From the NCBI GenBank assembly GCA_963974345.1, contig CAXBBW010000018.1, positions 2,369 to 66,368 of the forward strand: a stretch of DNA of 64,000 bases, written 5' to 3'. The stretch is from an uncultured Balneolaceae bacterium. Its GTDB lineage: Bacteria; Bacteroidota; Rhodothermia; Balneolales; Balneolaceae. The notes under the pieces are model-generated. The model ran no database searches. It was not told the DNA's origin and saw nothing but the letters and a program-made list of their open reading frames with translations. Shown here piece by piece: positions 7,667-21,589 of the stretch; within the stretch, counting starts at the first letter, position 1, and every line of letters starts with the position of its first letter. A program made the position numbers and the translations under genes.

Positions 7667-8475
7667 TAACTTTTTAGACCTGAAGAGGCCATACTTTTGA
7701 TAAAATGTTTCTGGAAAATTAAATAAGCGATGATTACCGGAAGCGCCAATAAGAAAGCAGATGCTAACTGCGCCCCAATACTTGAATCTGACCCGCCACC
7801 TACGGCAAATAGTGCAACCATCTGGGGCATAGTCATTAAGCTTTGTTCACGAATCACAATAAGTGGCCAAAGCACCTCGTTCCAATTAGCTACAAAGGTC
7901 AGGATGGCAACAGTAACCACTACGGGTTTTGAAAGTGGTAAAATGATTCGGAATAATATCCCAAGTTCACTGCAACCATCTAATCTGGCAGCATCAACTA
8001 AATCCTGAGGTATAGTCAAAAAACTTTGGCGAAAAAGAAGAATAGAAAAAGCAGTGACCATAGTCGGAACAATTAGACCTGCAAGATGATCTGTTAACCC
8101 AAATTTTACAATCAAAATGTAGGTTGGAATTAGTGTAATTTGAAACGGAATCATCATTGTAAGCAGACTCAAAGAAAACATAAAGTCTCTTCCCTTCCAT
8201 TTGAGTCTTGAAAATGCATATCCTGTTATTGAGCCAAACAGAGTAACTGATATTGTAACCAGACTTGTCACAATCAAACTGTTTAAAAATCCCTTTGCAA
8301 TCGGGATGCGATCAAAAACGAGTATATAATTTTGCCATGTCCATATTTCAGGTAATAGTTCAATATTTCCTATTTCACCATCAGGCTTAAAAGTGCTGAA
8401 AAACATCCATATAAAGGGATAAGCAAAAACAATAGCACCGATAATAAGAGCTGAATATAGTAGCGTTTTTTTCAT
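7666..8475 (-). CDS. Carbohydrate ABC transporter permease (MalG-like)
   Basis: Six-TM pattern and EAA-like loop DAARLDGCSELGILFRIILPLSKP. I prefer the ATG at 8475 (MKKTLLYS...), 1 nt after the upstream stop, over the TTG at 8499. Confidence 0.85.
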   Translation of the reverse strand: MKKTLLYSALIIGAIVFAYPFIWMFFSTFKPDGEIGNIELLPEIWTWQNYILVFDRIPIAKGFLNSLIVTSLVTISVTLFGSITGYAFSRLKWKGRDFMFSLSLLTMMIPFQITLIPTYILIVKFGLTDHLAGLIVPTMVTAFSILLFRQSFLTIPQDLVDAARLDGCSELGILFRIILPLSKPVVVTVAILTFVANWNEVLWPLIVIREQSLMTMPQMVALFAVGGGSDSSIGAQLASAFLLALPVIIAYLIFQKHFIKSMASSGLKS

Positions 8476-8476
8476 T

Positions 8477-9346
8477 TTAGTACACCTCCGTTTCAACAAA
8501 TTTCCGTTGAATTTTCACTACTGTAAAGATGATTACCGCAAAAAATAGTCCCATTGTTGAAGCATAGCCCATGTGACCGAAATTAAATGCCTGATTATAG
8601 ATATAAAGTACTGCCGATAATGTGGAATTCATTGGACCACCACCGGTCATTACATAAGGTTCTATAAATAGTGAAAATCCTCCAATAACGGATAAAACAA
8701 TTACGGTAACAATAGTTGGGTTCAACATTGGTAAAGTGATATAGAAAAAGCGTTGAGTGGTACTGGCACCTTCCAACTCTGCTGCTTCATACAATTCAGC
8801 GGGAATACTTTGTAAACCTCCCATAAACAAAATCACATATAAACCCACATTTTTCCAAGTAGCCATAAAAGCGATGGAAGGCATTGCCCAATTTTCTGAA
8901 ACCAACCAGGGAATTTGCCCCATCCCGAATTTGTGAAGAAGTTGATTTAATAATCCAGTATCGTAATTGAATAGTTGCTGAAATAAAATGGTAACAACAA
9001 CTCCTGATACTACAACCGGTAAAAAATAAAGGGTTCTAAAGAAGCCTCTAGCTATGATTTTCTGGTTTAATAAATTGGCAAAGAACAGAGCCAAAATGAT
9101 CTGAAGTGGAATATGCAGGACTAAAAAGATGCCTGTGTTAATAATTGACTGTAAAAAAACTTCATCAGAAAAGACCCTAATAAAGTTTTTGAATCCAACA
9201 AATTCCATTGGAGTAACTACATCCCATCGATGAAAAACCAGAATCAATGAAAACACAACTGGATATACAAAAAACAAAGAGAGATGAGCCATATAAGGCA
9301 TACTCAACAAAAAGCCGGGTTTTATCATTTTAGAGAGTTTCTTCAT
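8477..9346 (-). CDS. Carbohydrate ABC transporter permease (MalF-like)
   Basis: Multi-TM pattern and EAA loop EAAELEGASTTQRFFYITLPML. Abuts the binding-protein gene. Confidence 0.85.
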   Translation of the reverse strand: MKKLSKMIKPGFLLSMPYMAHLSLFFVYPVVFSLILVFHRWDVVTPMEFVGFKNFIRVFSDEVFLQSIINTGIFLVLHIPLQIILALFFANLLNQKIIARGFFRTLYFLPVVVSGVVVTILFQQLFNYDTGLLNQLLHKFGMGQIPWLVSENWAMPSIAFMATWKNVGLYVILFMGGLQSIPAELYEAAELEGASTTQRFFYITLPMLNPTIVTVIVLSVIGGFSLFIEPYVMTGGGPMNSTLSAVLYIYNQAFNFGHMGYASTMGLFFAVIIFTVVKIQRKFVETEVY

Positions 9347-10672
9347 CTATTTATTCCACTCCCTCAAAATCTGAATGGCTTCAATCATTTCGAGTGTAGC
9401 CTCTTCCGGTGTCATTTTTCCATAAACAGAAGCTATTTCATAATACCGAGCAACAGAATCCAGGATTTCTTTAAAGTCACGAACGCTATCAACTCCTCTT
9501 GTAAAAGCTGCCTGTTCGGCAAAGCGCGCTAAACTCGGGTTTAGCTTAAAAAAATCTTTAAAGTCAGGATCGGTAAGTAATTCTTTTCTTATGGGTATCT
9601 GACTTGCAAACTCAAGAAGGCGATAATCTGCTTCTTTGCTGATTAGGAACTTTACAAAATCCCAGCTTTCCTGTGGGTATTTTGTATTTGAAAAAATGGC
9701 AATATTCTTGTGATCACCATAGGTATATGCTTCCCCTTCATAATCATCAGGAACCGGTAGAGGAGCGTAATCATATTCAAGAGATTCTGGTGCATTTTTC
9801 TCGAGAAAAGAAATATTCCAGGGCCCTGTAAATTCAACAGCAATTTTACTGTAGAGGAAAGCATTTCCTTGTAATGTAGATTGCGGGAAATAACCACCCT
9901 CATAAATCTCTTGGTAGAATTTAAATACTTTTTTTGATGCTTCTTCATCAATAGCCAATTCGCCTTTATCGAAAAATGTTTTACCGCCCGAAGCATTGAT
10001 ATAACTAGTGTAATAATCGTAATATCTTTGCCACCAAATCGGTCGGATATCTCTAAACCCCATCCATTGATCTACTCTTCCATCACCGTCAATATCTTTG
10101 GTAATTTTTGATGCGGCATCTAAAAACTCTGAATAAGTTCGTGGAAACTCATTAACTCCTGCATCTCTGAACATTTTGGCATTGTATTGTACCATAATAG
10201 GATTTGTTTTCCATGGTACCTGATAAGTATGCCCATCTTTAGCTTTCACACTTTCTAGAATATCTTCAGGAACCCGCTCGCCCATTACTTGATAGTAATC
10301 CTCAAAAGTATCGAGTGCTAACAAGCCTTTAGCTCGAATGAAATCGTTGGTAATCCCAGGCCAGATATTTGAACAAATATCCGGTGTAGTTCCGGCAACC
10401 ATCGCGGATAGCAAAACTTCTTCGCTCGACTGTCCTGCTGGTAATGCCTGTAGTTTAACCTGAACTACATGTCCTTTTGCATTCCATTCATCAACTAATT
10501 CCTTTGCTAAAGCAAATTCCTGAGGATTAGGAGATGACCAGTAAGTAATAGTTTTATTTCCATTCTCAGATTCCACGGTACTTTCATTGGAGTTATCGCA
10601 ACTAACACTGAATACAAGAAATAAACCTATCAGCCAGCTTGCTAGTACAGCAAAATCTTTATATTGAAGCAT
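9347..10672 (-). CDS. ABC transporter extracellular sugar-binding lipoprotein
   Basis: Lipobox VFSVSC. Family-1 solute-binding-protein-like length and composition. Located upstream of the two permeases. ATG at 10672 is preferred; the longest ORF begins at TTG 10696. Confidence 0.75.
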   Translation of the reverse strand: MLQYKDFAVLASWLIGLFLVFSVSCDNSNESTVESENGNKTITYWSSPNPQEFALAKELVDEWNAKGHVVQVKLQALPAGQSSEEVLLSAMVAGTTPDICSNIWPGITNDFIRAKGLLALDTFEDYYQVMGERVPEDILESVKAKDGHTYQVPWKTNPIMVQYNAKMFRDAGVNEFPRTYSEFLDAASKITKDIDGDGRVDQWMGFRDIRPIWWQRYYDYYTSYINASGGKTFFDKGELAIDEEASKKVFKFYQEIYEGGYFPQSTLQGNAFLYSKIAVEFTGPWNISFLEKNAPESLEYDYAPLPVPDDYEGEAYTYGDHKNIAIFSNTKYPQESWDFVKFLISKEADYRLLEFASQIPIRKELLTDPDFKDFFKLNPSLARFAEQAAFTRGVDSVRDFKEILDSVARYYEIASVYGKMTPEEATLEMIEAIQILREWNK

Positions 10673-10696
10673 TCTATGTACTGTATTAATACGCAA

Positions 10697-11743
10697 TCAA
10701 AATCCCATTTCAAGTGTAAGACTATGGATGTTACCCAATCTGCCCATGGTTTTATAGCCATAGCTGAGTTTAGCAAGTAATCCGGTAGACAATTTTTGAT
10801 GAACTCCGAATCCGGTGTTAAAACCTGATTCTACTTCTTTAAGAAACAAAGTTTCATAGCCTCCTCTCAAAAACACTCGCTGTTGAAATCCATATTCTCC
10901 ACCAACATTTACGCTTTCGTAATTCGAACTTGGATGAAGAGCATCTATCGCAATCAATACATTATGCATTGGAGTTTTAACGGGCTCGAAGGCAATCCCA
11001 AATTGAAAATTTAGAGGAAGACTCCATGAATCCGTTTCAAAATTAACGGGAATACGATCGTTGTTTCCTTCACTAATCGGATCGGGATCAACAAAGGTTC
11101 TTAAATCTCTCCCCTTCATTTTCATATCGCTACCGAAGTTGTAAATCGTAGCACCAATCACCATTCCGCCAAGAAAATCCGTTTTGTATTTAGTACCTAG
11201 ATCAATGGCAATGGCATTAGCTTTGGTATGCCAGATTCTTTGTTGGATGAACTTTAAGGTTCCACCAACACTAAATCGGTCGCCTACATTTGAAGCATAA
11301 GTAATCCCAAAAGATATATCAGCGGCATCAAAGGTTTCTCCGTTTCCATCCTGGAATTCTTCGGTTCGAACCAGCATTTCAGGAACACTAAGCATTGTAA
11401 GTGCGAAACCTACATTTCCAATTTTTTCAAAATTGAATACGGCGCCAATGTAATTGAAATCTAAACCGGTAACCCATTCACTATGTGTAGTAATGATTTC
11501 ATTCTTTGCCACAGAAGCAATTCCTGCCGGGTTCCAGTAAAGTGCTGAGGCATCATCAGAAACTGCAACAAATGCACCTCCCATTCCTGTTGCTCTACTA
11601 CCAACTCCTATTTGAAGGAATTCTGCAGCGGTAGTTCCAACTTTAGAAACCTTTTGTGCATGAAGCTGGATAGGTATAAACCCAAAGAATAGTACAGACA
11701 GAAAAATGAGATTCTTAATAGATATTTTCATGACTTTTCTCAT
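10697..11743 (-). CDS. PorV/UPF0164-like outer-membrane beta-barrel (T9SS cargo-shuttle family paralogue)
   Basis: Signal peptide, then GTTAAEFLQIGVGSRATGMGGAFVAVSDDASALYWNPAGIA, the hallmark N-terminal block of the PorV/UPF0164 family. Alternating beta-strand pattern with a terminal F. Start overlaps the upstream stop (ATGA). Confidence 0.65.
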   Translation of the reverse strand: MRKVMKISIKNLIFLSVLFFGFIPIQLHAQKVSKVGTTAAEFLQIGVGSRATGMGGAFVAVSDDASALYWNPAGIASVAKNEIITTHSEWVTGLDFNYIGAVFNFEKIGNVGFALTMLSVPEMLVRTEEFQDGNGETFDAADISFGITYASNVGDRFSVGGTLKFIQQRIWHTKANAIAIDLGTKYKTDFLGGMVIGATIYNFGSDMKMKGRDLRTFVDPDPISEGNNDRIPVNFETDSWSLPLNFQFGIAFEPVKTPMHNVLIAIDALHPSSNYESVNVGGEYGFQQRVFLRGGYETLFLKEVESGFNTGFGVHQKLSTGLLAKLSYGYKTMGRLGNIHSLTLEMGF

Positions 11744-14700
11744 TTTATCACCGCAAATCTTCCGGTTGTTTCACCAATACCTTCAGCCTCAATGTGATAC
11801 ATATAAACTCCAAAAGAGAGATTCATTCCGTCTTTAGTAACCAAATCCCATGCTTCCTGACCGTCCTCAATAGAAGAATCATGATAGAGTGTTTGTACTA
11901 ACTGTCCCGTGATCGTATAGATTCTGATAGTACATTTTGCAGGTAGTTTCATGAAATAAATGCGTCGTTCTCCCCTACCTGCCCGATACGTGTTTGCAGG
12001 TTCGAAATCGCTGGAAGCTACATATGGATTAGGTACTACAAAGACGTCTTTAAGACTTTCTTTTGCAAAATTTTTGTCCAATGCTCCCCCATTCATACTG
12101 AAGCGATATTGATCTGAATTTTGAAACGGTTTCGTAGTTTCGAAAACAAATGATGAACCGGGCTGGGGTTCTTCTCTGGTTAAATCAGGTTGAAGAACAG
12201 GATCTGGTGGAATTAAACGAATCGACCAACTCGCTCTCCAATTACCTCCAGCGAACTGAGGCTCCAATCCAGGTTCCGTTCCCATAATAATTACAATAAG
12301 CTCTCCATAATCGTATTGTCCATTACTTAATCCGTCTACATCTTCAATGATTGAAAAGCGTTCTTTTTGACCTGTAATCGTATTTTCAATATAGAATTTA
12401 GTAGGAATTTCACGCATCCCGAAAGCAACTCTCATTGAAGTATCAGATACATTTTCGGTAAAGTGAATTTCAAAATTAGCAGGATATCTGATAAATCTTG
12501 AAACAAACAAACTGTTATTTGAAGCCGGCTCTACCAGTGGAGTAAAGTTTCCACCATCACCTTCAAATCCAACACTACTATCAATAATTGTAATCTCAGA
12601 AGGGCCTTCAATATCAATCGAGAAACCATCAGCCAATGGGGTTTGAATAGTCCCTTCTTCTAGCGGACCTTCAAAAAAAGGCTCGCTGTCTCCCGTGCTT
12701 TGCAGTGTAGCAATCGGGTTTATATTGGTTTGCCAAGTAGAGTCGTTCTGAAAACTAAGAACATATTCTTTCCCTTCAACCACCGTACCTGTTGAAAGGA
12801 TATTAATTGAAATATTCCCAGTACCAATAATTTCTGATTCATCAAGATCGATATCAGGTGGAATATAACCAGCAGATGGAGCCCTTGGGACAACTACCGC
12901 AGTATTAACGTCTACATTGATATTCCCTGCTACATCATTTTTGATAATGGACGAGGTTGTGCTTGGCGAAATCCCTCTTATTTTTCCATCTTCACCAACC
13001 ACATAACCACCTTCAGAATCACGTTCCACATAACCCCGATCGTAAGGAACCAATGCATAATAGTACGTTTTCCCGTTGATTACATCCCGATCGATGTAGC
13101 TGTGTTTAAGTCCTGAATCATTACCCAGATTAAACTGAACTCCATTTACTGCTACAGGATGAAGTCCTCTTAATCCGTTTTTCAAGTCAAATTGAGCTAA
13201 TGGTTTTTGATAAATCGTACTTCCATAAGCATCGGTGATCAACAGATTTTCTTCAAAATTTGGTTCAGTTGAACGATAAATGAGATAACCTTCAAAATCG
13301 TATTCACCTAAAAACGGGTCGAACGAACTTTCTGCTTTATCATCCCAAAACAGAGTTACCATTTCGTCTCCTGCAACAGCAGTCAGGTTCGATTTATTTG
13401 GAGGACGAGCAAACTGGTAGTCAGCATTATAAATCTGCTGAACTATTTCTTTTTTTCGGGCAAGTGAAGAATTTGAAATATCTCTTGGATCGTTAAAATC
13501 TTTTTCCGCAAAAACCAAAGCCATTGAAAAACGTTCGGTTTGACCTGCTTTTAAAGGAAAAGCTCCAGACGAAAAGAACATCCCCAGATTTCTACCACCT
13601 TCAAGAACAATATCATCTAAAGGAGGAAGTGCTTCTGAAAAAAGCTCGAAATTCTGTTCATCATCAATCAACTCATATTGATGCACATCAAAAACTTGAA
13701 ACCCTGTTAATCCAATTTGGTCCGATTCATCTTTATCTAGACCATCAAAATTTGGCTCGCCTTCATCAGGTCTACCGTTTCCTTCACCTTCATCAATTCC
13801 AGGATAATTCGCTTGATTGGGACCTAATCCATCCATTCCCACATCATTATTAAGTGGCTCACCAGAATCCCAAATTCCGTTTTCATTGATATCTGAGTAG
13901 CTCAACCAATCCATATCCTCATCTCCAGTCCACCAATATCCAGATTGATAAGCTGGCATTTGTTCCAAGGGTAAATAGAACGTCTCAAATTTAGATATAT
14001 CATAGTTAGCTAGTACGTAACTCGTAATATTATCTTGACCTTCTATAAGTTGCCCTGCTCCACTTTCTCTACGCTCATTAGTAATCCCGTCAGAATCATT
14101 GTCTTTATTATCTGTAGAGTTCCCTGGTGATTCTAAGAATGAATAACCTGCAGTTCCTACTGGTCCCCATAAACCAGGAGAACCAATTCCATCATGATCC
14201 CACGCAAATGCGATATCTAAGTCTACATCATAGGCACCTTCATCATCACCTGAATCATCTGTTCCTCCTATTCCCCAATCAATGTATTGAGAGAAGTAGA
14301 CTTCGTCGTAATCAACATCACACTCGTTAGTAATTTCATACAACCAAAAAATTACATCTTGTGCCAAAGGGTGATTCCATTGAAATCCACGGGCTTTAAC
14401 TTCGATCCCTAAACCGCCCCGTGTTTCATCTCCCGTACATGGATAAAAATTATGTGGGGCTTTTGTCCATTCTTTATCTTCGGCATCATCATAAACGAAA
14501 TAGGTTTCCAAATCGGCATTAAGCACTCCTTTTCCAAACCATCCATTCCATTGTCCAGCCCAATCTACAGAACGATCTGGCCAAACTTGAGGCCATGTTC
14601 TGTTATCATCACTTCTTGCTGGAGAATCTTGCAATGGATTAGAAAAACCGTAAAGAGGAGCAAATCCCCAAGGCACTTTTGTAATTGGATCCAGATCAAT

Positions 14701-15039
14701 AAACTCTCTGTAATTTGTAGACATTGGAGTAATAGTATTTCCGAAAGCATCTTTGGTTTTTGCAGATACTATGAAAGCCACTCCATCCACATAAGAATGC
14801 CCACTTCCTTTAGGCCATTCTCCAGAAGGTTGATCTGGGTGACGAGCAATTTCTCCATGATTGGAAAACAATGTTCTTACTCTGTTTCCATCCATTACAC
14901 CCCATTGAGTCCACTTATTACTACCATGATCAATGTTTTCCTGAGCATTTACAGGTATAACCAATCCGGTTAAAACCAGGGCTAAGACGATAAGTAACCA
15001 CTGCATTTTCGTATTCAATATGTTCTCTTGTTTAATCAC
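11740..15039 (-). CDS. Large secreted surface protein with Ca-binding-like Asp-rich repeats and a variant T9SS C-terminal domain
   Basis: Signal peptide (MQWLLIVLALVLTGLVIPVNAQ if the ATG at 15006 is used; the longest ORF starts at GTG 15039). DxDxDG-like runs (DNKDNDSDG, DINENGIWDSGEP, DVGMDG, DKDESD). C-terminus VVPNPY...IRIYTITGQLVQTLY...GVYMYHIEA...RFAVIK. Confidence 0.55.
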   Translation of the reverse strand: MIKQENILNTKMQWLLIVLALVLTGLVIPVNAQENIDHGSNKWTQWGVMDGNRVRTLFSNHGEIARHPDQPSGEWPKGSGHSYVDGVAFIVSAKTKDAFGNTITPMSTNYREFIDLDPITKVPWGFAPLYGFSNPLQDSPARSDDNRTWPQVWPDRSVDWAGQWNGWFGKGVLNADLETYFVYDDAEDKEWTKAPHNFYPCTGDETRGGLGIEVKARGFQWNHPLAQDVIFWLYEITNECDVDYDEVYFSQYIDWGIGGTDDSGDDEGAYDVDLDIAFAWDHDGIGSPGLWGPVGTAGYSFLESPGNSTDNKDNDSDGITNERRESGAGQLIEGQDNITSYVLANYDISKFETFYLPLEQMPAYQSGYWWTGDEDMDWLSYSDINENGIWDSGEPLNNDVGMDGLGPNQANYPGIDEGEGNGRPDEGEPNFDGLDKDESDQIGLTGFQVFDVHQYELIDDEQNFELFSEALPPLDDIVLEGGRNLGMFFSSGAFPLKAGQTERFSMALVFAEKDFNDPRDISNSSLARKKEIVQQIYNADYQFARPPNKSNLTAVAGDEMVTLFWDDKAESSFDPFLGEYDFEGYLIYRSTEPNFEENLLITDAYGSTIYQKPLAQFDLKNGLRGLHPVAVNGVQFNLGNDSGLKHSYIDRDVINGKTYYYALVPYDRGYVERDSEGGYVVGEDGKIRGISPSTTSSIIKNDVAGNINVDVNTAVVVPRAPSAGYIPPDIDLDESEIIGTGNISINILSTGTVVEGKEYVLSFQNDSTWQTNINPIATLQSTGDSEPFFEGPLEEGTIQTPLADGFSIDIEGPSEITIIDSSVGFEGDGGNFTPLVEPASNNSLFVSRFIRYPANFEIHFTENVSDTSMRVAFGMREIPTKFYIENTITGQKERFSIIEDVDGLSNGQYDYGELIVIIMGTEPGLEPQFAGGNWRASWSIRLIPPDPVLQPDLTREEPQPGSSFVFETTKPFQNSDQYRFSMNGGALDKNFAKESLKDVFVVPNPYVASSDFEPANTYRAGRGERRIYFMKLPAKCTIRIYTITGQLVQTLYHDSSIEDGQEAWDLVTKDGMNLSFGVYMYHIEAEGIGETTGRFAVIK

Positions 15040-15049
15040 TATTTATCCT

Positions 15050-17719
15050 TTAAAAACTTATGTTCAAACCAATGCTAACCCGTCTGGGAGCAGAGTAGAA
15101 ATCGGGTCGAAATAAATATTCGTCTTTGGTATTTAATCCTTGTGGAATTCCTGTTTGAAACTGCAGATTTGGAAAAGCTCTTCCCGTATCGGTATACACT
15201 TCAGTTTCATTCTGAGTATCGAATAGGTTATAAATTCTTGCAAACAAACTGGCATTAGTACCTTTAATAGTAAAACTTTTAGAGGCATACATATCAAAGT
15301 TGATGTAGGTTGGTTTCCTGTCTGAGTTCACCAATCCAATTCTCTCGTTCGATTTTGAAGGGGTATAAGGAAATCCGGAGCCATATTCACCAAGTATCGT
15401 TAATATCCAATTACTCTTTGTCAAAAAGCTTGTACTGGCATTCAGTTGATGCCTTCTGTCCCAATCTAATGGTACCAATTGTTTTTCAGTTTGTACTCCA
15501 GCCAGTTCGTCTAAGGCTCTTGATTGTGGGTCACTGGCATTTCCAGATGCAACCTGAAACGAATAATTTATATTGAAACTGAAATTATTCTGCATTCTTT
15601 TTTCAACATTCAGTATCAGTCCTTTAGTTTGACCATAATCAGTGTTGATATATCTTCCATATTTAGAAAGTGGGAATGGTTCATCAAAACCAGGTTGAAT
15701 GGTTTCGATTCGGGTACCAAGTAGATTTCTAATATCTTTATAAAAAGCAGTAACCTGCACTGAAAGAATATTACTAAAGCCTTGCTGAAGCCCAATTTCA
15801 TAAGAAACCGTTTGCTGTGGTTTCAAATCTGGATTACCAAAAATACGGCTTAATCCAACTTCTGGGTTATAAGTATAATCCGGGTTTATATAGAGATATT
15901 GAAAAGAAGGAACCTGAAAGAAATGACCATAAGAAACATGAACAACTCCAGTTTCTGAAATGGTATAAGCGATTCCAAATCGGGGGGAAATTTGCCAGTT
16001 TGGGGAGGTATTTGATTTAGCAGAGGTCGTTGGTTGTCCATAATCTGAAGGGAATGTACTGTTTGCATCAAAATAATCGTACCTAAGCCCCATATTAACT
16101 ACCATATAGTCAAACTCTATTTTATCCTGTATATAAGCACTTACTTCAATAGGTCGCTCATCAAAATAAACATGATCGGGAGTTCCCTCAGGTGGAATTG
16201 CCGGCTCAAAACTGGTTGATGAATTGTTCAATACATCGAACGTTCTGAATTCAATAGAATAAAGTTTTAACAAAGCTCCTGCTTTTACCATATTCTGGCG
16301 ATTCATTTGGCTGGTAATATCAAAACCAGTTAATAAAGTCCCGGTTTCCCTTGTCGTATGATCCATTACAACACCACCTCTGTAAAACCCGAAATTACCT
16401 CCAAGAAAACTCTGAGCGTCATCTCTTGGATATCTGGGATCAAGTGGATTTTCGTAAACATACGATTTACTCCGGTTAATAAAGTAAGCCCCCTTCAGAT
16501 TGATGAAAGTTTTATTACTTATCAAATAGTTGTCTACAATATTAAGACTTATGGATTCTCCATAATTGGTAGGAATTCCATCGGGGTTATAGCTGTATAG
16601 GTGATTATAGCCTTGACCTTCATCATTTTGATATAAACCCGTAACTGATAGTTTATTCCCTTTTATATGGGAAGATGTGAGCTTTAACTGAACCGTATTT
16701 TGCTTACTCCAATTCATAGAACTGTATGAACTATCTCCTAATTCAGGTACAAAAACCTGTCTTCCATCCACTGTTACAAATTCACCATTCTCCTGACCGT
16801 CATATTTTGGCCGAACAATATTTTGTCCATATAAATAACCGTCATCGTTTACAGCTCTGCCCGACATAAAGAAATGAAGTTTATTATTGAACCCTGGAAC
16901 AGATCCACTTAGAGAACCTTGAAAATCATATATATCAAGTGGTGAAATAGATTTATTGTTTTGGAATGCTTCATTATTCGTAGTTATATAATCTCCACTA
17001 TAAACTGAGAAGTTACCTTCATATTCATCTCGACCATCTTTGGTAACAATATTTACTACACCTGATTGTGCCTGCCCAAATTCTGCATTAAATGTTCCTG
17101 AAATAACTTCCACTTCCTGTATGGAATTGTTTTCCACCTGATAGGCATAGGAGTTATCGAACGAATCGTTGATAGGAATTCCATCTACCAGATAAGCAAC
17201 TTCTCCAAGTCTCCCCCCTCTAAAGTGACCATCAACTACTCCGGCCTGAAGGTTTACAACATCATTGAAGTTTTCAACTGGCATAATTTGCATTTCAGCT
17301 GAAGAAATAGATGCTTTCGATGAAGTTAAATCCTTTTCGACAATAGGTCTCTCAGCAGTTACAACTACTTCCTCTCCTTCAAACACACTTTCGCTTAAAG
17401 TAAAATCAATATTCGTTGTTTGGTTGATTTTAACTCGGACATCCTGAACAATTTGAGTTTTAAATCCCAAAAAAGAAGCTTTTAAATTATACGTACCCGG
17501 TGTAATATTTAAGATTACATAATAACCTTCAAAATCGGTTACTGCACCTTGTAAAGTACCTTCAATAACTACATTAACACCCGGTAATGTTTCTCCGGTC
17601 TCTGCATCAACTATCTGACCGGTAATTTTACCGGTAGTTAAAATATTAGGAGCCTTAGTTCCATTAATCAGAAATAAAGTGACAACAATCAGAAGAAGGG
17701 CACTCTTTGTTATTTGCAT
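15050..17719 (-). CDS. TonB-dependent receptor with N-terminal CarboxypepD_reg domain (not obviously SusC-type)
   Basis: GKITGQIVDAETGETLPGVNVVIEGT...YNLKASFLGFKTQ (carboxypeptidase regulatory-like). Plug region EEVVVTAERPIVEKD...MPVENFNDVVNLQAGV. C-terminal barrel ending in F. ATG at 17719 (MQITKSALLLIV...) is preferred to 17782. Confidence 0.85.
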   Translation of the reverse strand: MQITKSALLLIVVTLFLINGTKAPNILTTGKITGQIVDAETGETLPGVNVVIEGTLQGAVTDFEGYYVILNITPGTYNLKASFLGFKTQIVQDVRVKINQTTNIDFTLSESVFEGEEVVVTAERPIVEKDLTSSKASISSAEMQIMPVENFNDVVNLQAGVVDGHFRGGRLGEVAYLVDGIPINDSFDNSYAYQVENNSIQEVEVISGTFNAEFGQAQSGVVNIVTKDGRDEYEGNFSVYSGDYITTNNEAFQNNKSISPLDIYDFQGSLSGSVPGFNNKLHFFMSGRAVNDDGYLYGQNIVRPKYDGQENGEFVTVDGRQVFVPELGDSSYSSMNWSKQNTVQLKLTSSHIKGNKLSVTGLYQNDEGQGYNHLYSYNPDGIPTNYGESISLNIVDNYLISNKTFINLKGAYFINRSKSYVYENPLDPRYPRDDAQSFLGGNFGFYRGGVVMDHTTRETGTLLTGFDITSQMNRQNMVKAGALLKLYSIEFRTFDVLNNSSTSFEPAIPPEGTPDHVYFDERPIEVSAYIQDKIEFDYMVVNMGLRYDYFDANSTFPSDYGQPTTSAKSNTSPNWQISPRFGIAYTISETGVVHVSYGHFFQVPSFQYLYINPDYTYNPEVGLSRIFGNPDLKPQQTVSYEIGLQQGFSNILSVQVTAFYKDIRNLLGTRIETIQPGFDEPFPLSKYGRYINTDYGQTKGLILNVEKRMQNNFSFNINYSFQVASGNASDPQSRALDELAGVQTEKQLVPLDWDRRHQLNASTSFLTKSNWILTILGEYGSGFPYTPSKSNERIGLVNSDRKPTYINFDMYASKSFTIKGTNASLFARIYNLFDTQNETEVYTDTGRAFPNLQFQTGIPQGLNTKDEYLFRPDFYSAPRRVSIGLNISF

Positions 17720-17803
17720 GATATGTGTTAGGTCAACGGTTGGTTTTAAAAAGGATTCCCGGGCATTCAACCCGAGATCCATGGATATAACATGATTGTT
17801 ATA

Positions 17804-20455
17804 TTATTTAATCAATGTCATTCTTTTCACTTCAGCAAAATTAGAAGTGCTTAAGCGGTACAAGTAAACTCCACTTGGTAAGTTCGCCGCATTAAAGTTA
17901 ATGCTATGCATACCACTGCTCATTTTCGAATCTGTAATTAAATCTGCTACTTTTTGCCCCAGCATATTGAATACTGAAAGACTAACAACGTCAGTTTGAG
18001 CAAGCTCAAAACTAATATTAGTAGAAGGGTTGAAAGGATTCGGGTAATTTTGATTTAACTGAACTTTGAGAGGTCGATCTGTTCTTTCCGCGGGTTCGTT
18101 AGCAACCAATGTACCAACCGGAAGATCTGCTAGATTGGTGATACTAACATCATCCCAATAAGTAACGCCTTCGAAATGGTGCCAGTAGCGCAGGCGGACT
18201 TCCAAGCCAACCGCATCATCTGGTGGATAAACCACAAATGCGTATTGAGTCCAACCAGAATCTTCCACCCGGGTAGCTAACGGGATTACGTTTGGATTGT
18301 AATCACCATTTAATCGAATGTCTAGGCCTCCAATTTCGTTATAACCTGCTGCTCCAGATTCTAAGCTGCTATACCAAAGTGCGGTCATCCCAATATTGTT
18401 GTCTGCTTTCCCAATACTGTCTGGGAAAGGAACGTCCTCGTACTTCACCCAGTAGCTAACTAATACAGGTTCGCCAGTAGTTACCGGAACACGATCACTA
18501 ATTGCAACGGCTTCGCTACCTTCTGCATTTAGCTGTTCAATTCTATGACTATACGTTCCGGTATGCGCTTCAGCATCGGTTCGAGTCATCGCAAACTGTA
18601 AAGTTTCAGGCCAATCTGCTGCGCCTTGATCAAAATTACCTGGAGCATACCAAGTATACCAGGTATCGCCCATGTCCATATTTGGATTGAACCAACCACC
18701 AGCCCAGCCTTCAGCTCCTTCTGCTGCGCGGATAAAGATATCTTCTAAGTATACCGTACCAGTAGCACTTGCTCCTTTACGGAAGGTAATGCGAACACTT
18801 TTAGCTGCCTGTGAAGTAGGCAATGTAATTGCTCCCAAAGATAAACTGTTTATTTCTACCCAACCTGAACTTGCAGCATCTTGTGGTACATCAATTACAA
18901 CTGGTGCACCTAGTACATCAACTCCTTGGGCGTCAAAAAACTCATACACTAATTGGAATTTTTCAGCATCGGTAGCTGGGTTTGTATTTACTCCCTCTAC
19001 AAATACCCAGCCTCCTACAATGATTTCAGGAGTTCCATCACCAGGAATTCCTCCTACCCAATTACGCACTGCTTCACCTTGCGCCCATGAGGCCGCTCCG
19101 GTGCCACTTAATTTTAAGCTATAACTTGGGGTACGGTACTGTTCGGTACTCCATGTTGCTCCTGCCCCTTCCGGACTCCAATAAGCTGGGGTTTCTGCTT
19201 CAAACCCACCATTGCTTAGAAGATCTTCCATATTATCTGTTATATCAGAAACAGGTGCAATAAAAACATCATCCCAATAAGTAACGCCTTCGAAATGGTG
19301 CCAGTAGCGCAGGCGGACTTCCAAGCCAACCGCATCATCTGGTGGATAAACCACAAATGCGTATTGAGTCCAACCAGAATCTTCCACCCGGGTAGCTAAC
19401 GGGATTACGTTTGGATTGTAATCACCATTTAATCGAATGTCTAGGCCTCCAATTTCGTTATAACCTGCTGCTCCAGATTCTAAGCTGCTATACCAAAGTG
19501 CGGTCATCCCAATATTGTTGTCTGCTTTCCCAATACTGTCTGGGAAAGGAACGTCCTCGTACTTCACCCAGTAGCTAACTAATACAGGTTCGCCAGTAGT
19601 TACCGGAACACGATCACTAATTGCAACGGCTTCGCTACCTTCTGCATTTAGCTGTTCAATTCTATGACTATACGTTCCGGTATGCGCTTCAGCATCGGTT
19701 CGAGTCATCGCAAACTGTAAAGTTTCAGGCCAATCTGCTGCGCCTTGATCAAAATTACCTGGAGCATACCAAGTATACCAGGTATCGCCCATGTCCATAT
19801 TTGGATTGAACCAACCACCAGCCCAGCCTTCAGCTCCTTCTGCTGCGCGGATAAAGATATCTTCTAAGTATACCGTACCAGTAGCACTTGCTCCTTTACG
19901 GAAGGTAATGCGAACACTTTTAGCTGCCTGTGAAGTAGGCAATGTAATTGCTCCCAAAGATAAACTGTTTATTTCTACCCAACCTGAACTTGCAGCATCT
20001 TGTGGTACATCAATTACAACTGGTGCACCTAGTACATCAACTCCTTGGGCGTCAAAAAACTCATACACTAATTGGAATTTTTCAGCATCGGTAGCTGGGT
20101 TTGTATTTACTCCCTCTACAAATACCCAGCCTCCTACAATGATTTCAGGAGTTCCATCACCAGGAATTCCTCCTACCCAATTACGCACTGCTTCACCTTG
20201 CGCCCATGAGGCCGCTCCGGTGCCACTTAATTTTAAGCTATAACTTGGGGTACGGTACTGTTCGGTACTCCATGTTGCTCCTGCCCCTTCCGGACTCCAA
20301 TAAGCTGGGGTTTCTGCTTCAAACCCACCATTGCTTAGAAGATTAATACTTTCAGCTTGTGAAAGTATGGTATTAGTTTGAGCCATAACTGAACTTGATA
20401 CCAAAAAGGTAAAAAGAAACAGCGTACTCAAACATATTTTAGTAAATGTTTTCAT
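17804..20455 (-). CDS. T9SS-secreted protein with two identical ~360-aa CBM4/9-like (NGGFE...) double modules; putative surface glycan-binding protein
   Basis: Signal peptide MKTFTKICLSTLFLFTFLVSSSVMAQ (ATG at 20455; the longest ORF begins at TTG 20497). Repeated LLSNGGFEAETPAYW...GTVYLEDIFI and ...VTYWDDV jelly-roll-like modules. C-terminal LNQNYPNPFNPSTNISFEL...GVYLYRL...MTLIK. Confidence 0.65.
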   Translation of the reverse strand: MKTFTKICLSTLFLFTFLVSSSVMAQTNTILSQAESINLLSNGGFEAETPAYWSPEGAGATWSTEQYRTPSYSLKLSGTGAASWAQGEAVRNWVGGIPGDGTPEIIVGGWVFVEGVNTNPATDAEKFQLVYEFFDAQGVDVLGAPVVIDVPQDAASSGWVEINSLSLGAITLPTSQAAKSVRITFRKGASATGTVYLEDIFIRAAEGAEGWAGGWFNPNMDMGDTWYTWYAPGNFDQGAADWPETLQFAMTRTDAEAHTGTYSHRIEQLNAEGSEAVAISDRVPVTTGEPVLVSYWVKYEDVPFPDSIGKADNNIGMTALWYSSLESGAAGYNEIGGLDIRLNGDYNPNVIPLATRVEDSGWTQYAFVVYPPDDAVGLEVRLRYWHHFEGVTYWDDVFIAPVSDITDNMEDLLSNGGFEAETPAYWSPEGAGATWSTEQYRTPSYSLKLSGTGAASWAQGEAVRNWVGGIPGDGTPEIIVGGWVFVEGVNTNPATDAEKFQLVYEFFDAQGVDVLGAPVVIDVPQDAASSGWVEINSLSLGAITLPTSQAAKSVRITFRKGASATGTVYLEDIFIRAAEGAEGWAGGWFNPNMDMGDTWYTWYAPGNFDQGAADWPETLQFAMTRTDAEAHTGTYSHRIEQLNAEGSEAVAISDRVPVTTGEPVLVSYWVKYEDVPFPDSIGKADNNIGMTALWYSSLESGAAGYNEIGGLDIRLNGDYNPNVIPLATRVEDSGWTQYAFVVYPPDDAVGLEVRLRYWHHFEGVTYWDDVSITNLADLPVGTLVANEPAERTDRPLKVQLNQNYPNPFNPSTNISFELAQTDVVSLSVFNMLGQKVADLITDSKMSSGMHSINFNAANLPSGVYLYRLSTSNFAEVKRMTLIK
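18146..20343. repeat. Direct duplication: two apparently 100% identical 1079-bp copies (18146-19224 and 19265-20343) separated by a unique 40-bp linker; period 1119 bp
   Basis: Line-by-line comparison at offset 1119 showed no mismatch. The shadow ORFs 18502-18690/19621-19809 and 18672-19124/19791-20243 in the track are identical. Confidence 0.9.
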
Positions 20456-20514
20456 AGAGTTCTGCTTATTTATTAATGTTTTATCTGATCTATCCAACGA
20501 CTAGTATCACTTTA

Positions 20515-20542: not shown

Positions 20543-21589
20543 TTAAACTGAATTTCTAACAACTAATTCAGTTGGAATAGTGAGTTGATGACTCCCTCTC
20601 TGAAATTTTGAGGGTTTAATGTCACTCTCATCAAGAATTTCGGTGAGGTAGCGAAGTGCTAATTCTCCGAACTGTTCTTTAAAAACTCGAATGGTCGTAA
20701 GCTGAGGTGAAGCAAACTTTGCTCCATCTACATCATCAAAACCAACTACAGCTATATCTTCGGGTACTTTGATATGATGTTGTTCAGCGTACTTCATAAA
20801 ACCTAATGCCATTGCATCATTTGCACAAAAGACAGCAGTAGGTGCTGCTCCCGATTTCATTAGTTTTGCACCAAGATTATATCCGGTTTGCAACGTAGGT
20901 GAATCCTCTTCCTCAAGAAAAACCAAATCAGAGGTGTCCTTATGTCCTTCTTTTAACATTGCAAGTTGATAGCCTTCCAAACGTTCTGAGATACTGGGGT
21001 GATATGGATCTGCACCTAGAAACGATATCCTTGAATGACCTTTACCTATTAAATATCGAACCGCTTCTATAGAGGCATTCCTATTATCGACAGAAATACT
21101 TGGAAATGACTTATACTTATAATCAACTAACACAAAAGGAATACCTGATTCTTCTACTTCTTCCAACAATTCGCCACTTACTTTTCCGGCGATAATTATT
21201 CCATCTACATTTCTTTCTTTAAGCAATCTAGGTGTATCCTCACCTGCTTTATAATCATCAGAAACAGTAGCTAGTAATACATATAAATTATGTTTCTTTG
21301 ACTCAAATTCAGCTCCAAGAAAAATACGGGTGTAAAAAGGTTCACTTAGTGTAAAGTGGGTTTCACGTAGTATGAAGCCAATATTATTTGTTCTGTTGGA
21401 AGCAAGATTACGGGCTGATGCAGTAGGCACATAACCAAGTTCTTCAATAGAATTCAGTATGTCTTTTCTTTTTTCGTCACTTACATATCCTTTTTGATTT
21501 ACAACCATTGAAACAGTTGACATAGAGGCGTTTGCATGTATTGCAACGTCTTTTATAGTGACTTTTTTCTTCGTTTTAGTGTTTGTCAA
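20543..21589 (-). CDS. LacI family transcriptional regulator
   Basis: HTH block VTIKDVAIHANASMSTVSMVVNQKGYVSDEKRKDILNSIEELGYVPTASARNLA followed by a periplasmic-binding-protein-like sugar domain. The start is uncertain: the longest ORF begins at TTG 21652 but would cover the operator palindrome, so TTG 21589 (MTNTKTKKKVTIKD) is proposed. Confidence 0.85.
   Translation of the reverse strand: MTNTKTKKKVTIKDVAIHANASMSTVSMVVNQKGYVSDEKRKDILNSIEELGYVPTASARNLASNRTNNIGFILRETHFTLSEPFYTRIFLGAEFESKKHNLYVLLATVSDDYKAGEDTPRLLKERNVDGIIIAGKVSGELLEEVEESGIPFVLVDYKYKSFPSISVDNRNASIEAVRYLIGKGHSRISFLGADPYHPSISERLEGYQLAMLKEGHKDTSDLVFLEEEDSPTLQTGYNLGAKLMKSGAAPTAVFCANDAMALGFMKYAEQHHIKVPEDIAVVGFDDVDGAKFASPQLTTIRVFKEQFGELALRYLTEILDESDIKPSKFQRGSHQLTIPTELVVRNSV

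What the first reader, a model, noticed from the sequence alone, without database searches (positions are those of the whole stretch)
10697..17719. TonB receptor / giant CTD protein / locus-embedded PorV-like barrel: a possible SusD-independent surface glycan-capture module
Three consecutive genes are tightly coupled. A CarboxypepD_reg-type TonB-dependent receptor (15050-17719) is followed 10 nt later by a 1099-aa secreted protein. That protein carries Asp-rich Ca-binding-like stretches and a variant T9SS C-terminal domain (VVPNPY...IRIYTITGQLV...GVYMYHIEA). Its stop overlaps (ATGA, 11740-11743) the start of a 348-aa barrel whose N-terminus, GTTAAEFLQIGVGSRATGMGGAFVAVSDDASALYWNPAGIA, is the hallmark of PorV/UPF0164. 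In Bacteroidota, PorV is known as a general shuttle that binds CTD cargo and is not normally part of substrate-specific operons. Here a PorV-like paralogue is translationally coupled to one specific CTD cargo and to a non-SusC receptor, inside a glycan operon with no SusD. My inference is a dedicated receptor-cargo-barrel complex filling the SusD/SGBP role. I do not know of a characterised example.
Basis: partly seen in the sequence, partly recalled or inferred. Interest (0 to 1): 0.7.

Follow-up and report, generated by a model that had tools for sequence, protein, structure and literature searches.

The report
TonB receptor, surface protein, PorV-like anchor
An outer-membrane nutrient importer is always encoded next to a large unnamed secreted protein and a small PorV-like barrel that probably holds that protein on the cell surface. 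This three-gene set recurs widely in environmental relatives of Bacteroidetes and may do the job that SusD does in gut Bacteroides.

Summary
The gene order is a TonB-dependent receptor, then after 10 nt a 1099-aa secreted protein ("BIG"), then a 348-aa PorV/PorQ-family barrel joined by an ATGA overlap. All three lie inside a LacI-regulated GH130/ABC-transporter operon.

In 80 loci from other species the barrel follows BIG in 73 of 73 loci with enough sequence, and the receptor precedes it in 77 of 80.

The triad is also a generic, repeated cassette. Six of six distant BIG paralogues (29-40% identity), in loci without GH130 genes, have the same receptor and barrel neighbours, sometimes as tandem triads.

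The BIG family has no Pfam model; every relative that carries a source name is called "hypothetical". It comprises about 8,000 clusters at 50% identity. A confident AlphaFold model (pLDDT 90) shows a beta-sandwich head with Asp-rich loops, further beta-sandwich domains and a C-terminal domain. That domain is homologous to type A T9SS signals and closest to those of PorZ and PorU, which are retained in PorQ and PorV.

Best reading: T9SS exports BIG, its own barrel tethers it, and it serves the adjacent receptor. No physical complex or SusD-like role has been shown. I rate it a new variant of known kinds. I found no literature on it.

The parts
15050..17782 (-). TonB-dependent receptor. The ORF encodes 910 aa; the likely start is the Met at 17719. 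It has an N-terminal CarboxypepD_reg-like extension, a Plug and a 22-strand-type barrel. It is not a SusC/RagA family member.
   Evidence: Pfam PF13715 78 bits, PF07715 29.6 bits, PF00593 112 bits. TIGR04056 SusC/RagA scores only 81 bits against a cut-off of 368, and the match covers only the N-terminal ~200 residues. The C-terminal residue is Phe.
17351..17374 (-). TonB box EEVVVTAE, residues 137-144 of the receptor, between the N-terminal extension and the plug.
   Evidence: Located by script. The match to the classical TonB-box consensus (e.g. DTLVVTA) rests on established knowledge.
11740..15039 (-). 1099-aa secreted multidomain protein, called 'BIG' here. It founds a large family with no Pfam or NCBIfam model.
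   Evidence: No Pfam hit. More than 3,684 relatives were found, and all that carry a source name are called hypothetical. The profile search found 8,024 clusters at 50% identity with E<=1e-3. The AlphaFold model has pLDDT 90.2 and pTM 0.82.
13405..14922 (-). BIG N-terminal head, residues ~40-545. It is a large beta-sandwich (strands in 46-310 and 444-511) with an inserted region of Asp-rich loops and helices (311-443).
   Evidence: Secondary structure and pLDDT of about 90. It is 59-71% identical among orthologues. It also occurs as stand-alone ~640-aa proteins with a canonical type A CTD.
13717..14103 (-). Asp-rich, Ca-binding-like motifs: DNDSDG (res 313), DEDMD (res 373), DDVGMDG (res 398-404) and DKDESDQ (res 435). 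These are the most conserved residues in the whole family.
   Evidence: Across 74 diverse members the invariant columns are D313, D315, E322, D373, W378, D399, G401, D403, G404, D416, E428, D435, E438 and D440. Ca binding itself is an inference from the motif type.
12880..13392 (-). BIG residues ~550-720: an FN3-like, beta-rich region.
   Evidence: Confident in both AlphaFold models. Foldseek returns FN3 arrays. It is 64% identical among orthologues.
12070..12879 (-). BIG residues ~721-990: beta-sandwich domains. This is the only fast-evolving part of the protein.
   Evidence: Mean identity among orthologues is 35% here, against 59-71% in the other regions measured.
11743..12042 (-). BIG C-terminal domain, residues 1000-1099. 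It is a divergent type A T9SS CTD with a conserved insertion of about 20 aa after PNPY (GRGERR at 11962-11979).
   Evidence: NCBIfam best hits are the PorZ C-terminus (2.2e-5), the PorU C-terminus (2.5e-4) and TIGR04183 at 18.6 bits (cut-off 23). Pfam PF18962 scores 16.2 bits (cut-off 27). hhalign against the type A CTDs of the co-encoded CBM proteins gives 95.4% probability, E 1.9e-8. Among PDB sequences the family profile hits only the PorU and PorZ CTDs.
10697..11743 (-). 348-aa PorV/PorQ-family outer-membrane barrel. It is a paralogue, not the PorV, PorQ or PorV2 equivalog.
   Evidence: NF033709 205.7 bits against a cut-off of 90, covering positions 1-326 of 326. PorV 69 against 250, PorQ 87 against 220, PorV2 83 against 325. 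No PorP/SprF hit. PDB PorV 6h3i_F at E 5e-5. It has a signal peptide and a C-terminal Phe.
11740..11743 (-). ATGA stop/start overlap between BIG and the barrel gene.
   Evidence: Read directly from the sequence. Across 69 loci the median gap from BIG to the barrel is 18 nt. Across 63 loci the median gap from receptor to BIG is 11 nt.
17804..20497 (-). 897-aa protein with duplicated CBM4_9-like modules and a canonical type A T9SS CTD. It lies upstream of the receptor in every locus with enough sequence.
   Evidence: PF02018 51.5 bits, PF18962 41.9 bits, TIGR04183 43.5 bits. Present in 42 of 42 loci with at least 6 kb upstream.
20543..21652 (-). LacI-type regulator at the head of the operon.
   Evidence: Judged from the translation. 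Its position is conserved in related loci.
7666..10696 (-). ABC sugar importer: solute-binding protein 9347-10696 and two permeases, 8477-9346 and 7666-8499.
   Evidence: SBP_bac_8 99 bits and SBP_bac_1 96 bits. The permeases were identified from their translations. The solute-binding gene follows the triad in 58 of 59 loci with enough sequence.
1483..7666 (-). Downstream catabolic genes: a 483-aa lipoprotein with no family (6215-7666), two GH130 genes (5187-6194 and 4044-5171) and an 854-aa GH94-like protein (1483-4047).
   Evidence: Pfam. The closest solved GH130 structures are beta-1,2-mannobiose phosphorylase (7fip) and 1,2-beta-oligomannan phosphorylase (9fj8), at E 1.7e-60 and 3.4e-60. 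GH94-like assignment.

Best explanation
The three genes form one outer-membrane uptake cassette.

**Shown**
- A TonB-dependent receptor of a non-SusC type, a BIG-family protein and a PorV/PorQ-family barrel are inherited, duplicated and transcriptionally packed as a unit.
- BIG carries a Sec signal and a divergent type A T9SS C-terminal domain.

**Inferred**
- BIG crosses the outer membrane through the T9SS.
- Its variant C-terminal domain is not cleaved. It stays bound in the extracellular loops of its own PorV-like barrel, as PorZ does in PorQ and PorU does in PorV. This tethers BIG to the cell surface without a lipid anchor.
- The tethered BIG sits beside or over the receptor. It binds substrate or caps the receptor and hands substrate to it.
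- In this locus the substrate is probably a beta-1,2-mannoside. The type A-CTD CBM protein captures it. The receptor imports it, the ABC system takes it up, and the two GH130 enzymes phosphorolyse it.

Functionally this would be the counterpart of SusD or other surface glycan-binding proteins, built from T9SS parts instead of lipoproteins.
For: **Synteny among orthologues**
- The barrel lies downstream in 73 of 73 loci with room, the receptor upstream in 77 of 80, and the CBM-CTD protein upstream in 42 of 42.
- Median intergenic gaps are 11 and 18 nt.

**Generic cassette**
- Six of six informative distant paralogues are flanked by the same kind of receptor and barrel in loci without GH130 genes.
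- Tandem triads occur on single contigs.
- All six triad barrels tested from other loci match NF033709 end to end (203-236 bits) and stay below the PorV, PorQ and PorV2 cut-offs.

**C-terminal domain**
- It is homologous to type A CTDs (hhalign 95.4%, E 1.9e-8).
- It falls below the type A thresholds and carries a family-wide insert.
- Its best sequence matches are the CTDs of PorZ and PorU, the two proteins reported to keep their CTD bound to PorQ and PorV (PMC10202324).
- PorZ is the top Foldseek hit for the confident model.

**Natural domain swap**
- When the BIG head carries a canonical type A CTD (proteins of ~640 aa), no receptor or barrel gene is adjacent.
- Triad BIGs showed no Por_Secre_tail hit in the precomputed Pfam lists.

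**Conservation**
- BIG is more conserved than its receptor in 68 of 68 loci. That is unusual for a free surface protein and fits a tightly fitted complex partner.
- Pairwise identities of the three components correlate across 20 triads (r 0.72-0.90, Mantel p 0.001). This is weak evidence because shared phylogeny contributes.

**Precedents**
- PorP/SprF anchors type B cargo (PMC9143113).
- The 14-strand FadL-like BamG holds the surface protein BamH against BamA (PMC12578637).
Against: - No interaction was tested. No multimer modelling was available and no experimental data exist.
- I did not model the barrel itself.
- Whether the C-terminal domain is retained or cleaved is unknown.
- I identified no glycan-binding site in BIG. 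Its most conserved residues are acidic loop residues, which could be purely structural.
- Paralogous triads sit in contexts that are not obviously about glycans (GDSL lipase, FG-GAP proteins, an oxidase). The generic role may therefore not be glycan capture.
- I could not check the rest of the source genome for a separate housekeeping porV.
- The paralogue sample is small (6 look-ups plus neighbouring triads). It was drawn from the best-scoring 150 representatives.
Confidence: 0.55

Rival explanations
1. The barrel is a dedicated but transient T9SS shuttle for BIG, acting as PorV does for ordinary cargo. It takes BIG from the translocon. BIG is then cleaved and either released or attached to anionic LPS. 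BIG works near the receptor but is not held by the barrel.
For: PorV, the best-studied family member, is described as a shuttle (PMC10202324). The BIG C-terminal domain is homologous to type A signals, which are normally cleaved. The barrel belongs to the PorV/PorQ family.
Against: The organism already exports at least four canonical type A proteins encoded in this window, presumably through a general PorV. Needing one extra barrel per cargo gene, repeated in tandem triads, fits a stoichiometric partner better than a catalytic shuttle. The closest CTD matches are the two retained CTDs.
Confidence: 0.17
2. BIG is a surface enzyme, for example a new endo-acting depolymerase, rather than a binding or capping protein. 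It produces oligomers next to the receptor. The barrel only anchors it.
For: The locus has no recognisable secreted endo-glycanase. The head is very conserved, with invariant R217, E322, W378 and E428. It also exists as a free T9SS-secreted protein. After the head was modelled confidently, Foldseek gave probability-1.0 hits, but with low TM scores, to GH94 phosphorylases, a dextran dextrinase and an exo-arabinanase (compared).
Against: Those hits have TM 0.14-0.22, and the tool does not report which part of the query they match. No Pfam, PDB-sequence or CAZy-like sequence signal was found. A homologous head is kept in paralogues from unrelated gene contexts, which argues against a single substrate-specific catalytic activity. 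The conserved acidic residues form DxDxDG-type loops typical of Ca sites.
Confidence: 0.15
3. The barrel is a FadL-like channel with a transport role of its own, unrelated to T9SS. BIG and the receptor are linked to it only by co-regulation.
For: PorV proteins are FadL homologues (PMC12578637). There is a weak Toluene_X hit at 19.6 bits.
Against: The FadL model is below its threshold, whereas the PorV/PorQ family model is passed more than twofold and end to end. The barrel always follows a protein with a T9SS-like C-terminal domain, often with overlapping or near-touching genes.
Confidence: 0.05
4. It is simply the organism's housekeeping porV, lying next to unrelated genes by chance.
For: I could not check the remainder of the genome for another porV.
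Against: It scores 69 bits against the PorV equivalog cut-off of 250. Adjacency is conserved in 73 of 73 loci and in distant paralogues. Two or more such barrels occur within 10 kb.
Confidence: 0.02

Closest known systems
PorZ-PorQ and PorU-PorV pairs of the T9SS attachment complex (Porphyromonas gingivalis)
   Same: A T9SS-exported surface protein has a C-terminal domain that is reported to stay bound to a PorV-family 14-strand barrel (PMC10202324). The BIG C-terminal domain's best sequence matches are exactly these two CTDs. PorZ is the top Foldseek hit.
   Different: The barrel is not the PorQ or PorV equivalog. The BIG passenger shows no sequence similarity to PorZ or PorU outside the C-terminal domain. 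The pair is encoded with a TonB-dependent receptor inside nutrient-uptake loci and is repeated many times, rather than being a single housekeeping complex. Retention of the C-terminal domain is untested here.
Type B CTD cargo with cognate PorP/SprF-like barrels (SprB-SprF, PG1035-PorP)
   Same: The logic is one adjacent barrel gene per cargo gene, and the barrel anchors the cargo at the surface (PMC9143113).
   Different: The barrel gave no PorP/SprF hit. The C-terminal domain is type A-like and gave no type B hit. No TonB-dependent receptor is part of those systems.
SusC/SusD pairs and surface glycan-binding proteins of Bacteroidota polysaccharide utilisation loci
   Same: A TonB-dependent transporter with an N-terminal CarboxypepD_reg-like extension is always co-encoded with a surface accessory protein. 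The pairs are repeated, sometimes in tandem, and sit in regulated substrate-specific loci.
   Different: The receptor fails the SusC/RagA model (81 against 368 bits). The partner is not a lipoprotein and not a SusD-fold protein; it is a 1,100-1,600-aa beta-sandwich protein with a T9SS signal. A third gene, the barrel, is obligatory. Import continues through an ABC transporter.
BamG-BamH in the Bacteroidota BAM complex
   Same: A 14-strand FadL/PorV-like barrel holds a surface-exposed protein by its extracellular loops and packs against another large barrel (PMC12578637). This is a structural precedent for the proposed geometry.
   Different: It is a different machine, for outer-membrane protein assembly. 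The partner is a lipoprotein, and neither T9SS nor a C-terminal signal domain is involved. I did not test sequence relatedness to BamG.

Membership tests
PorV/PorQ family (NCBIfam NF033709; Pfam PF19572/PF03687) | Score above the curated cut-off, full-length match | tested here: met
   205.7 bits against 90, covering model positions 1-326 of 326. PF19572 41.3 against 27. PF03687 31 against 21.4. Six triad barrels from other loci score 203-236 bits.
PorV proper (NF033710 equivalog) | Score at or above 250 bits | tested here: not met
   69.2 bits, and only the N-terminal ~200 residues align. PDB PorV 6h3i_F at E 5e-5 over residues 25-187.
PorQ (NF033711) and PorV2 (NF052325) equivalogs | Score at or above 220 bits (PorQ) or 325 bits (PorV2) | tested here: not met
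   87.2 and 83.4 bits.
PorP/SprF family barrels | Match to the PorP/SprF model | tested here: not met
   No such family was listed at E<=0.01 in the NCBIfam or Pfam scans of the 348-aa protein.
FadL/OMPP1/TodX channels (PF03349) | Score at or above 29.7 bits | tested here: not met
   19.6 bits, residues 51-131 only.
PorV/PorQ family | 14-strand FadL-like barrel fold | not tested
The fold is inferred only from family membership.
T9SS type A C-terminal sorting domain (TIGR04183 / PF18962) | Score above the cut-off at the extreme C-terminus | tested here: inconclusive
   TIGR04183 18.6 against 23 and PF18962 16.2 against 27: both below threshold. Profile-profile homology to the type A CTDs of the co-encoded proteins is 95.4%, E 1.9e-8. 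The PNPY, GVY and C-terminal K motifs are present, with an extra insert of about 20 aa.
T9SS type B C-terminal domain (TIGR04131) | Match to the type B model | tested here: not met
   Not among the hits even at E<=10.
Retained-CTD anchoring (PorZ-PorQ type) | The C-terminal domain is not cleaved and is physically bound to the cognate barrel | not testable with these tools
   This needs proteomics, cross-linking or multimer modelling. The only indirect support is that the best CTD matches are PorZ and PorU and that the barrel gene is adjacent.
TonB-dependent receptor | TonB box, plug and 22-strand barrel domains | tested here: met
   PF07715 29.6 against 23.9 and PF00593 112 against 27. TonB box EEVVVTAE at residues 137-144.
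SusC/RagA (TIGR04056) | Score at or above 368 bits | tested here: not met
   81.3 bits, covering only the N-terminal extension and plug (residues 52-252).
SusD/RagB-like partner | Lipoprotein with a SusD (TPR-like) fold encoded next to the receptor | tested here: not met
   No SusD-family Pfam hit in any operon protein scanned. BIG has no lipobox Cys and is predicted to be almost all beta.
SusCD-like working principle (receptor plus surface cap or binder) | The partner contacts the receptor and binds the substrate | not testable with these tools
   Only the obligate gene adjacency and the conservation pattern bear on this.

The most novel reading that the evidence does not exclude
The non-Bacteroidia lineages of the FCB superphylum and allied candidate phyla use a previously unrecognised class of TonB-dependent uptake machine. 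[quoted passage not shown] This would be a lipoprotein-free, three-component analogue of SusCD, present in thousands of cassettes. It would make T9SS a prerequisite for nutrient import in these groups. It would also imply that most PorV/PorQ-family barrels in nature are receptor-associated anchors rather than secretion shuttles.
Probability: 0.4. Interest if true: 0.85.

Novelty: new variant of a known kind. Interest (0 to 1): 0.72.

Why it matters
SusCD pairs define how Bacteroidota capture glycans and are used as markers for polysaccharide use in metagenomes. How their abundant environmental relatives feed large substrates to TonB-dependent receptors is largely unaddressed. These relatives include Marinimicrobia, Ignavibacteria, Calditrichia, Rhodothermia and Balneolia.

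A conserved receptor/BIG/PorV-like cassette would give three things:
- a concrete, testable model for that uptake;
- a new marker triad for annotating uptake loci, since the BIG family currently has no Pfam model and its named members are called hypothetical;
- a new physiological role for T9SS and for the many unexplained PorV/PorQ paralogues.

Cultivable carriers would make it experimentally accessible. Roseithermus sacchariphilus carries the locus, and a MAG labelled Melioribacter roseus does too.

Tried and rejected
- **First AlphaFold run.** With 20 orthologues, residues 26-545 came out below pLDDT 50, and the Foldseek result was uninformative FN3 strings. A 74-sequence alignment that included distant paralogues fixed this.
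- **Foldseek on the good model.** The whole-chain search gives only low TM scores because the protein has many domains.
- **Sequence searches for a known domain in BIG.** Profile searches against PDB sequences found nothing for the head. Pfam and NCBIfam found nothing outside the C-terminal domain.
- **Literature.** Nine full-text searches combining PorV, PorV-like, UPF0164, TonB-dependent, GH130, Ignavibacteria, Melioribacter, Caldithrix, Rhodothermus and phrasings for loci lacking SusD found no description of this cassette. A September 2026 review of bacterial glycoside transporters does not mention PorV, T9SS or these phyla.
- **Rejected: housekeeping PorV.** Equivalog scores and tandem copies argue against it.
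- **Rejected: FadL channel.** The model is below threshold.
- **Rejected: PorP/SprF with type B cargo.** No hits.
- **Rejected: SusC/SusD membership.** Both fail.

Full report
**1. What is in the window**

Positions 1483-21652 carry one densely packed minus-strand operon. Its genes, in transcription order, are:
- a LacI-type regulator (20543-21652);
- an 897-aa protein with CBM4_9-like modules and a canonical type A T9SS C-terminal domain (17804-20497);
- a TonB-dependent receptor (15050-17782);
- a 1099-aa protein with no family assignment (11740-15039), called BIG here;
- a 348-aa PorV/PorQ-family barrel (10697-11743);
- an ABC solute-binding protein and two permeases (7666-10696);
- a 483-aa lipoprotein with no family;
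- two GH130 genes;
- an 854-aa GH94-like protein.

The receptor has a CarboxypepD_reg-like N-terminal extension, a TonB box (EEVVVTAE), a plug and a barrel. It fails the SusC/RagA model (81 bits against 368).

The barrel passes the PorV/PorQ family model end to end (205.7 bits against 90). It is far below the equivalog cut-offs for PorV, PorQ and PorV2. It has no PorP/SprF hit and is below threshold for FadL.

None of the operon proteins scanned gave a SusD hit.

The window encodes four proteins with canonical type A T9SS signals, which indicates that the organism uses a T9SS.

The closest relatives of BIG are from Balneolaceae: 92% identity to a metagenomic protein and 78% to a Balneolaceae chromosome.

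**2. Is the triad conserved?**

BIG has more than 3,684 relatives in the 90%-clustered protein collection. None has a Pfam domain, and every one that carries a source name is called hypothetical.

I fetched the best 80 loci with flanks. By their record titles they come from Balneolales, Rhodothermales (including Roseithermus sacchariphilus), Marinimicrobia, Fidelibacterota, Kryptonia, Ignavibacteria/Melioribacteraceae and Calditrichia.

I compared all open reading frames of these loci with the window's proteins by BLASTP:
- a PorV-like gene lies directly downstream of BIG in 73 of 73 loci with at least 1.2 kb of downstream sequence;
- the receptor lies directly upstream in 77 of 80;
- the CBM/type A-CTD gene lies upstream of the receptor in 42 of 42;
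- the solute-binding gene lies downstream in 58 of 59.

In fact the whole order is colinear across these phylum-level lineages: LacI, CBM-CTD, receptor, BIG, barrel, ABC importer, then the 483-aa protein and GH130.

Median gaps are 11 nt from receptor to BIG and 18 nt from BIG to barrel.

**3. Is it only this one locus?**

No. A profile of BIG searched against 1.84 billion representatives (50% clusters) found 8,024 clusters at E<=1e-3 and 1,055 at E<=1e-30. Many of these proteins are 1,100-1,600 aa long.

I looked up the genomic context of seven distant members (29-40% identity over the head). Six contigs were long enough to judge. All six show the same neighbours: a CarboxypepD_reg-Plug receptor immediately upstream and a 339-347-aa PorV/UPF0164 barrel immediately downstream. 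Their wider contexts have no GH130 genes; they include a GDSL lipase, FG-GAP proteins with T9SS signals, an oxidase and a sugar kinase.

HMM searches of all fetched loci revealed tandem arrays:
- two complete triads in L084/L085;
- a second receptor-BIG pair on the other strand in L082;
- a new receptor starting right after the barrel in L083;
- a barrel ending just before the receptor in L020.

All six triad barrels tested from other loci match NF033709 end to end and stay below the PorV, PorQ and PorV2 cut-offs.

Pairwise identities of the three components correlate across 20 triads (r 0.72-0.90, Mantel p 0.001). They also correlate among paralogue-only pairs, for example receptor against barrel at r 0.88. 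This fits duplication of the cassette as a unit, but shared descent inflates such numbers.

**4. What is BIG?**

With only 20 orthologues AlphaFold left the N-terminal half unresolved. With 74 diverse family members the model reached mean pLDDT 90.2 and pTM 0.82. The predicted layout is:
- a signal-peptide helix;
- a large beta-sandwich head (residues ~46-310 and 444-511) with an inserted Asp-rich loop and helix region (311-443);
- a helix (525-538);
- an FN3-like beta region (552-716);
- further beta-sandwiches (729-983);
- a short helix (989-998);
- a C-terminal beta-sandwich (1000-1098).

The residues invariant across the 74 sequences are almost all acidic or glycine residues in DxDxDG-like motifs: D313, D315, E322, D373, D399, G401, D403, G404, D416, E428, D435, E438 and D440. 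These look like Ca-binding loops. That is an inference from the motif type.

Foldseek's top PDB hit is PorZ (E 9e-7), and PorU is also listed. The second search also gave probability-1.0 but low-TM hits to GH94 phosphorylases, a dextran dextrinase and an exo-arabinanase. These were absent from the top 50 of the first search, when the head was unmodelled, so I attribute them to the head. They suggest only a generic sandwich fold of the kind found in those enzymes. They are not evidence of catalysis.

Among orthologues the head, the FN3 region and the C-terminal domain are 59-71% identical. Residues 721-990 are only 35% identical.

BIG is more conserved than its own receptor in 68 of 68 loci.

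**5. The C-terminal domain**

Scanned alone, its best NCBIfam matches are the C-terminus of PorZ (2.2e-5), the C-terminus of PorU (2.5e-4) and the type A sorting domain (18.6 bits against a cut-off of 23). No type B model appears. Pfam Por_Secre_tail scores 16.2 bits against 27.

The family profile, searched against all PDB sequences, hits only the PorU and PorZ CTDs (E about 0.009).

A profile-profile comparison between 80 BIG tails and 65 type A tails, mostly of the co-encoded CBM proteins, gives 95.4% probability and E 1.9e-8.

By eye the type A landmarks are present: PNPY, GVY and a C-terminal K. There is also a family-wide insert of about 20 residues containing GRGxR.

So the domain is a real but distinct T9SS-type signal. 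PorZ and PorU are the two proteins reported to keep their CTD and remain bound to PorQ and PorV. A review has already proposed that cognate PorV-like barrels protect CTDs from cleavage (PMC10202324). For type B cargo, anchoring by adjacent PorP/SprF-like barrels has experimental support (PMC9143113).

**6. A natural control**

A search with the head of an Ignavibacteria orthologue found many proteins of about 640 aa. They consist of the head (about 47-49% identical to the window's) followed directly by a canonical Por_Secre_tail domain. In the three loci fetched for two of them, no receptor or PorV-like gene is adjacent.

Conversely, none of the triad BIGs has a recorded Por_Secre_tail hit.

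So the variant C-terminal module goes with the receptor and barrel, while the canonical signal goes without them. This is the strongest indirect argument that the barrel serves the variant C-terminal domain.

**7. Mechanism proposed**

Shown:
- the cassette is a unit of inheritance and expression;
- BIG is Sec-exported, has a T9SS-type C-terminal domain and is not a lipoprotein;
- the barrel is a PorV-family paralogue.

Inferred:
- T9SS exports BIG;
- the variant C-terminal domain stays in the loops of the cognate barrel and tethers BIG at the surface;
- BIG contacts the receptor and binds substrate or caps it.

For this locus the substrate is probably a beta-1,2-mannoside. Both GH130 proteins are closest to beta-1,2-mannobiose phosphorylase and 1,2-beta-oligomannan phosphorylase (7fip and 9fj8; about 1e-60 for the first gene). 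The CBM/type A-CTD protein probably does the first capture. The ABC system and the GH130 phosphorylases complete import and breakdown.

BamG-BamH-BamA in Bacteroidota offers a structural precedent for a FadL-like barrel holding a surface protein against another barrel (PMC12578637).

My confidence in the full chain is about 0.55. That the three genes work together, I put at about 0.9.

**8. Rivals**

- The barrel is a transient private shuttle (0.17).
- BIG is a surface enzyme anchored next to the receptor (0.15).
- The barrel is an independent FadL-like channel (0.05).
- It is a housekeeping PorV adjacent by chance (0.02, contradicted by synteny, scores and tandem copies).

**9. Comparison with the known, and novelty**

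It works like SusCD in logic: a receptor with an obligatory surface partner, repeated in substrate-specific loci. It fails both membership tests: the receptor is not SusC/RagA, and the partner is neither a lipoprotein nor a SusD fold.

It works like PorZ-PorQ and like type B cargo with PorP in anchoring logic. But the barrel is none of those equivalogs, and those systems contain no receptor.

Nine full-text literature searches and a 2026 review of glycoside transporters gave no description of such a cassette. The searchable library omits most subscription-journal papers, so absence is not proof.

I classify it as a new variant of known kinds: two known principles combined into an undescribed three-gene machine with a very large unannotated protein family at its centre.

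**10. Limits**

- There is no interaction evidence of any kind.
- The barrel was not modelled.
- I did not search the source genome for another porV.
- The paralogue sample is small and drawn from the best-scoring representatives.
- Taxon names are those of MAG records.
- Domain-level structure searches were not possible.

Noticed in passing
window 18137-19229 and the copy 1119 nt further on (inside gene 17804-20497): The CBM4_9/T9SS-CTD gene contains an in-frame tandem duplication of about 1092 nt with only 9 mismatches. The protein therefore has two nearly identical 373-aa modules. This stretch has GC of about 0.45 against about 0.37 nearby. Orthologues are of similar length, so the two-module layout is old. 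The near-identity here suggests recent gene conversion or an assembly effect.
   Followed up: partly
window 5187-6194 and 4044-5171: Both GH130 proteins are closest, among solved structures, to beta-1,2-mannobiose phosphorylase (7fip) and 1,2-beta-oligomannan phosphorylase (9fj8). They are more distant from beta-1,4-mannooligosaccharide phosphorylases. The locus probably targets beta-1,2-mannosides.
   Followed up: partly
window 1483-21652 compared with L001-L080: The whole operon of roughly twelve genes keeps the same gene order across Balneolales, Rhodothermales, Marinimicrobia, Fidelibacterota, Kryptonia, Ignavibacteria and Calditrichia. The order is LacI, CBM-CTD, receptor, BIG, barrel, solute-binding protein, two permeases, 483-aa protein, GH130s, with or without the GH94-like gene. 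That is unusually deep conservation for a catabolic locus.
   Followed up: partly
window 6215-7666: A 483-aa predicted lipoprotein with no Pfam hit is conserved within the locus; at least 44 related loci have a match covering at least 80% of it. It is a candidate for a new glycoside hydrolase or binding protein.
   Followed up: no
L086 10001-11926, L087 3939-5864, L088 8530-10452: Stand-alone proteins of about 640 aa consist of the BIG head plus a canonical type A T9SS signal. They are encoded without any receptor or PorV-like neighbour.
   Followed up: partly
L049 14342-15863 (and the equivalent ~1.5 kb gap in other Ignavibacteria and Calditrichia loci): These lineages carry an extra gene between the barrel and the solute-binding gene. 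In L049 it is split into 332-aa and 140-aa reading frames. The 332-aa frame has no Pfam hit; the 140-aa frame was not scanned.
   Followed up: no
L084 7326-23341; L085; L082 1-3831; L083 10004-12322; L020 38-1111: Receptor/BIG/barrel triads occur in tandem or back to back on single contigs, much like tandem SusC/SusD pairs.
   Followed up: partly
window 21739-26088: Divergently transcribed from the LacI gene are an MsiK-like ABC ATPase (identified from its translation) and a 1073-aa PKD/Laminin_G_3 protein with a canonical type A T9SS signal. The ATPase may energise the operon's permeases.
   Followed up: no
window 120-1217 and 46129-47724: Two more canonical type A T9SS cargo proteins are encoded here: an endonuclease I family protein and a DUF4380 protein.
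   Followed up: no
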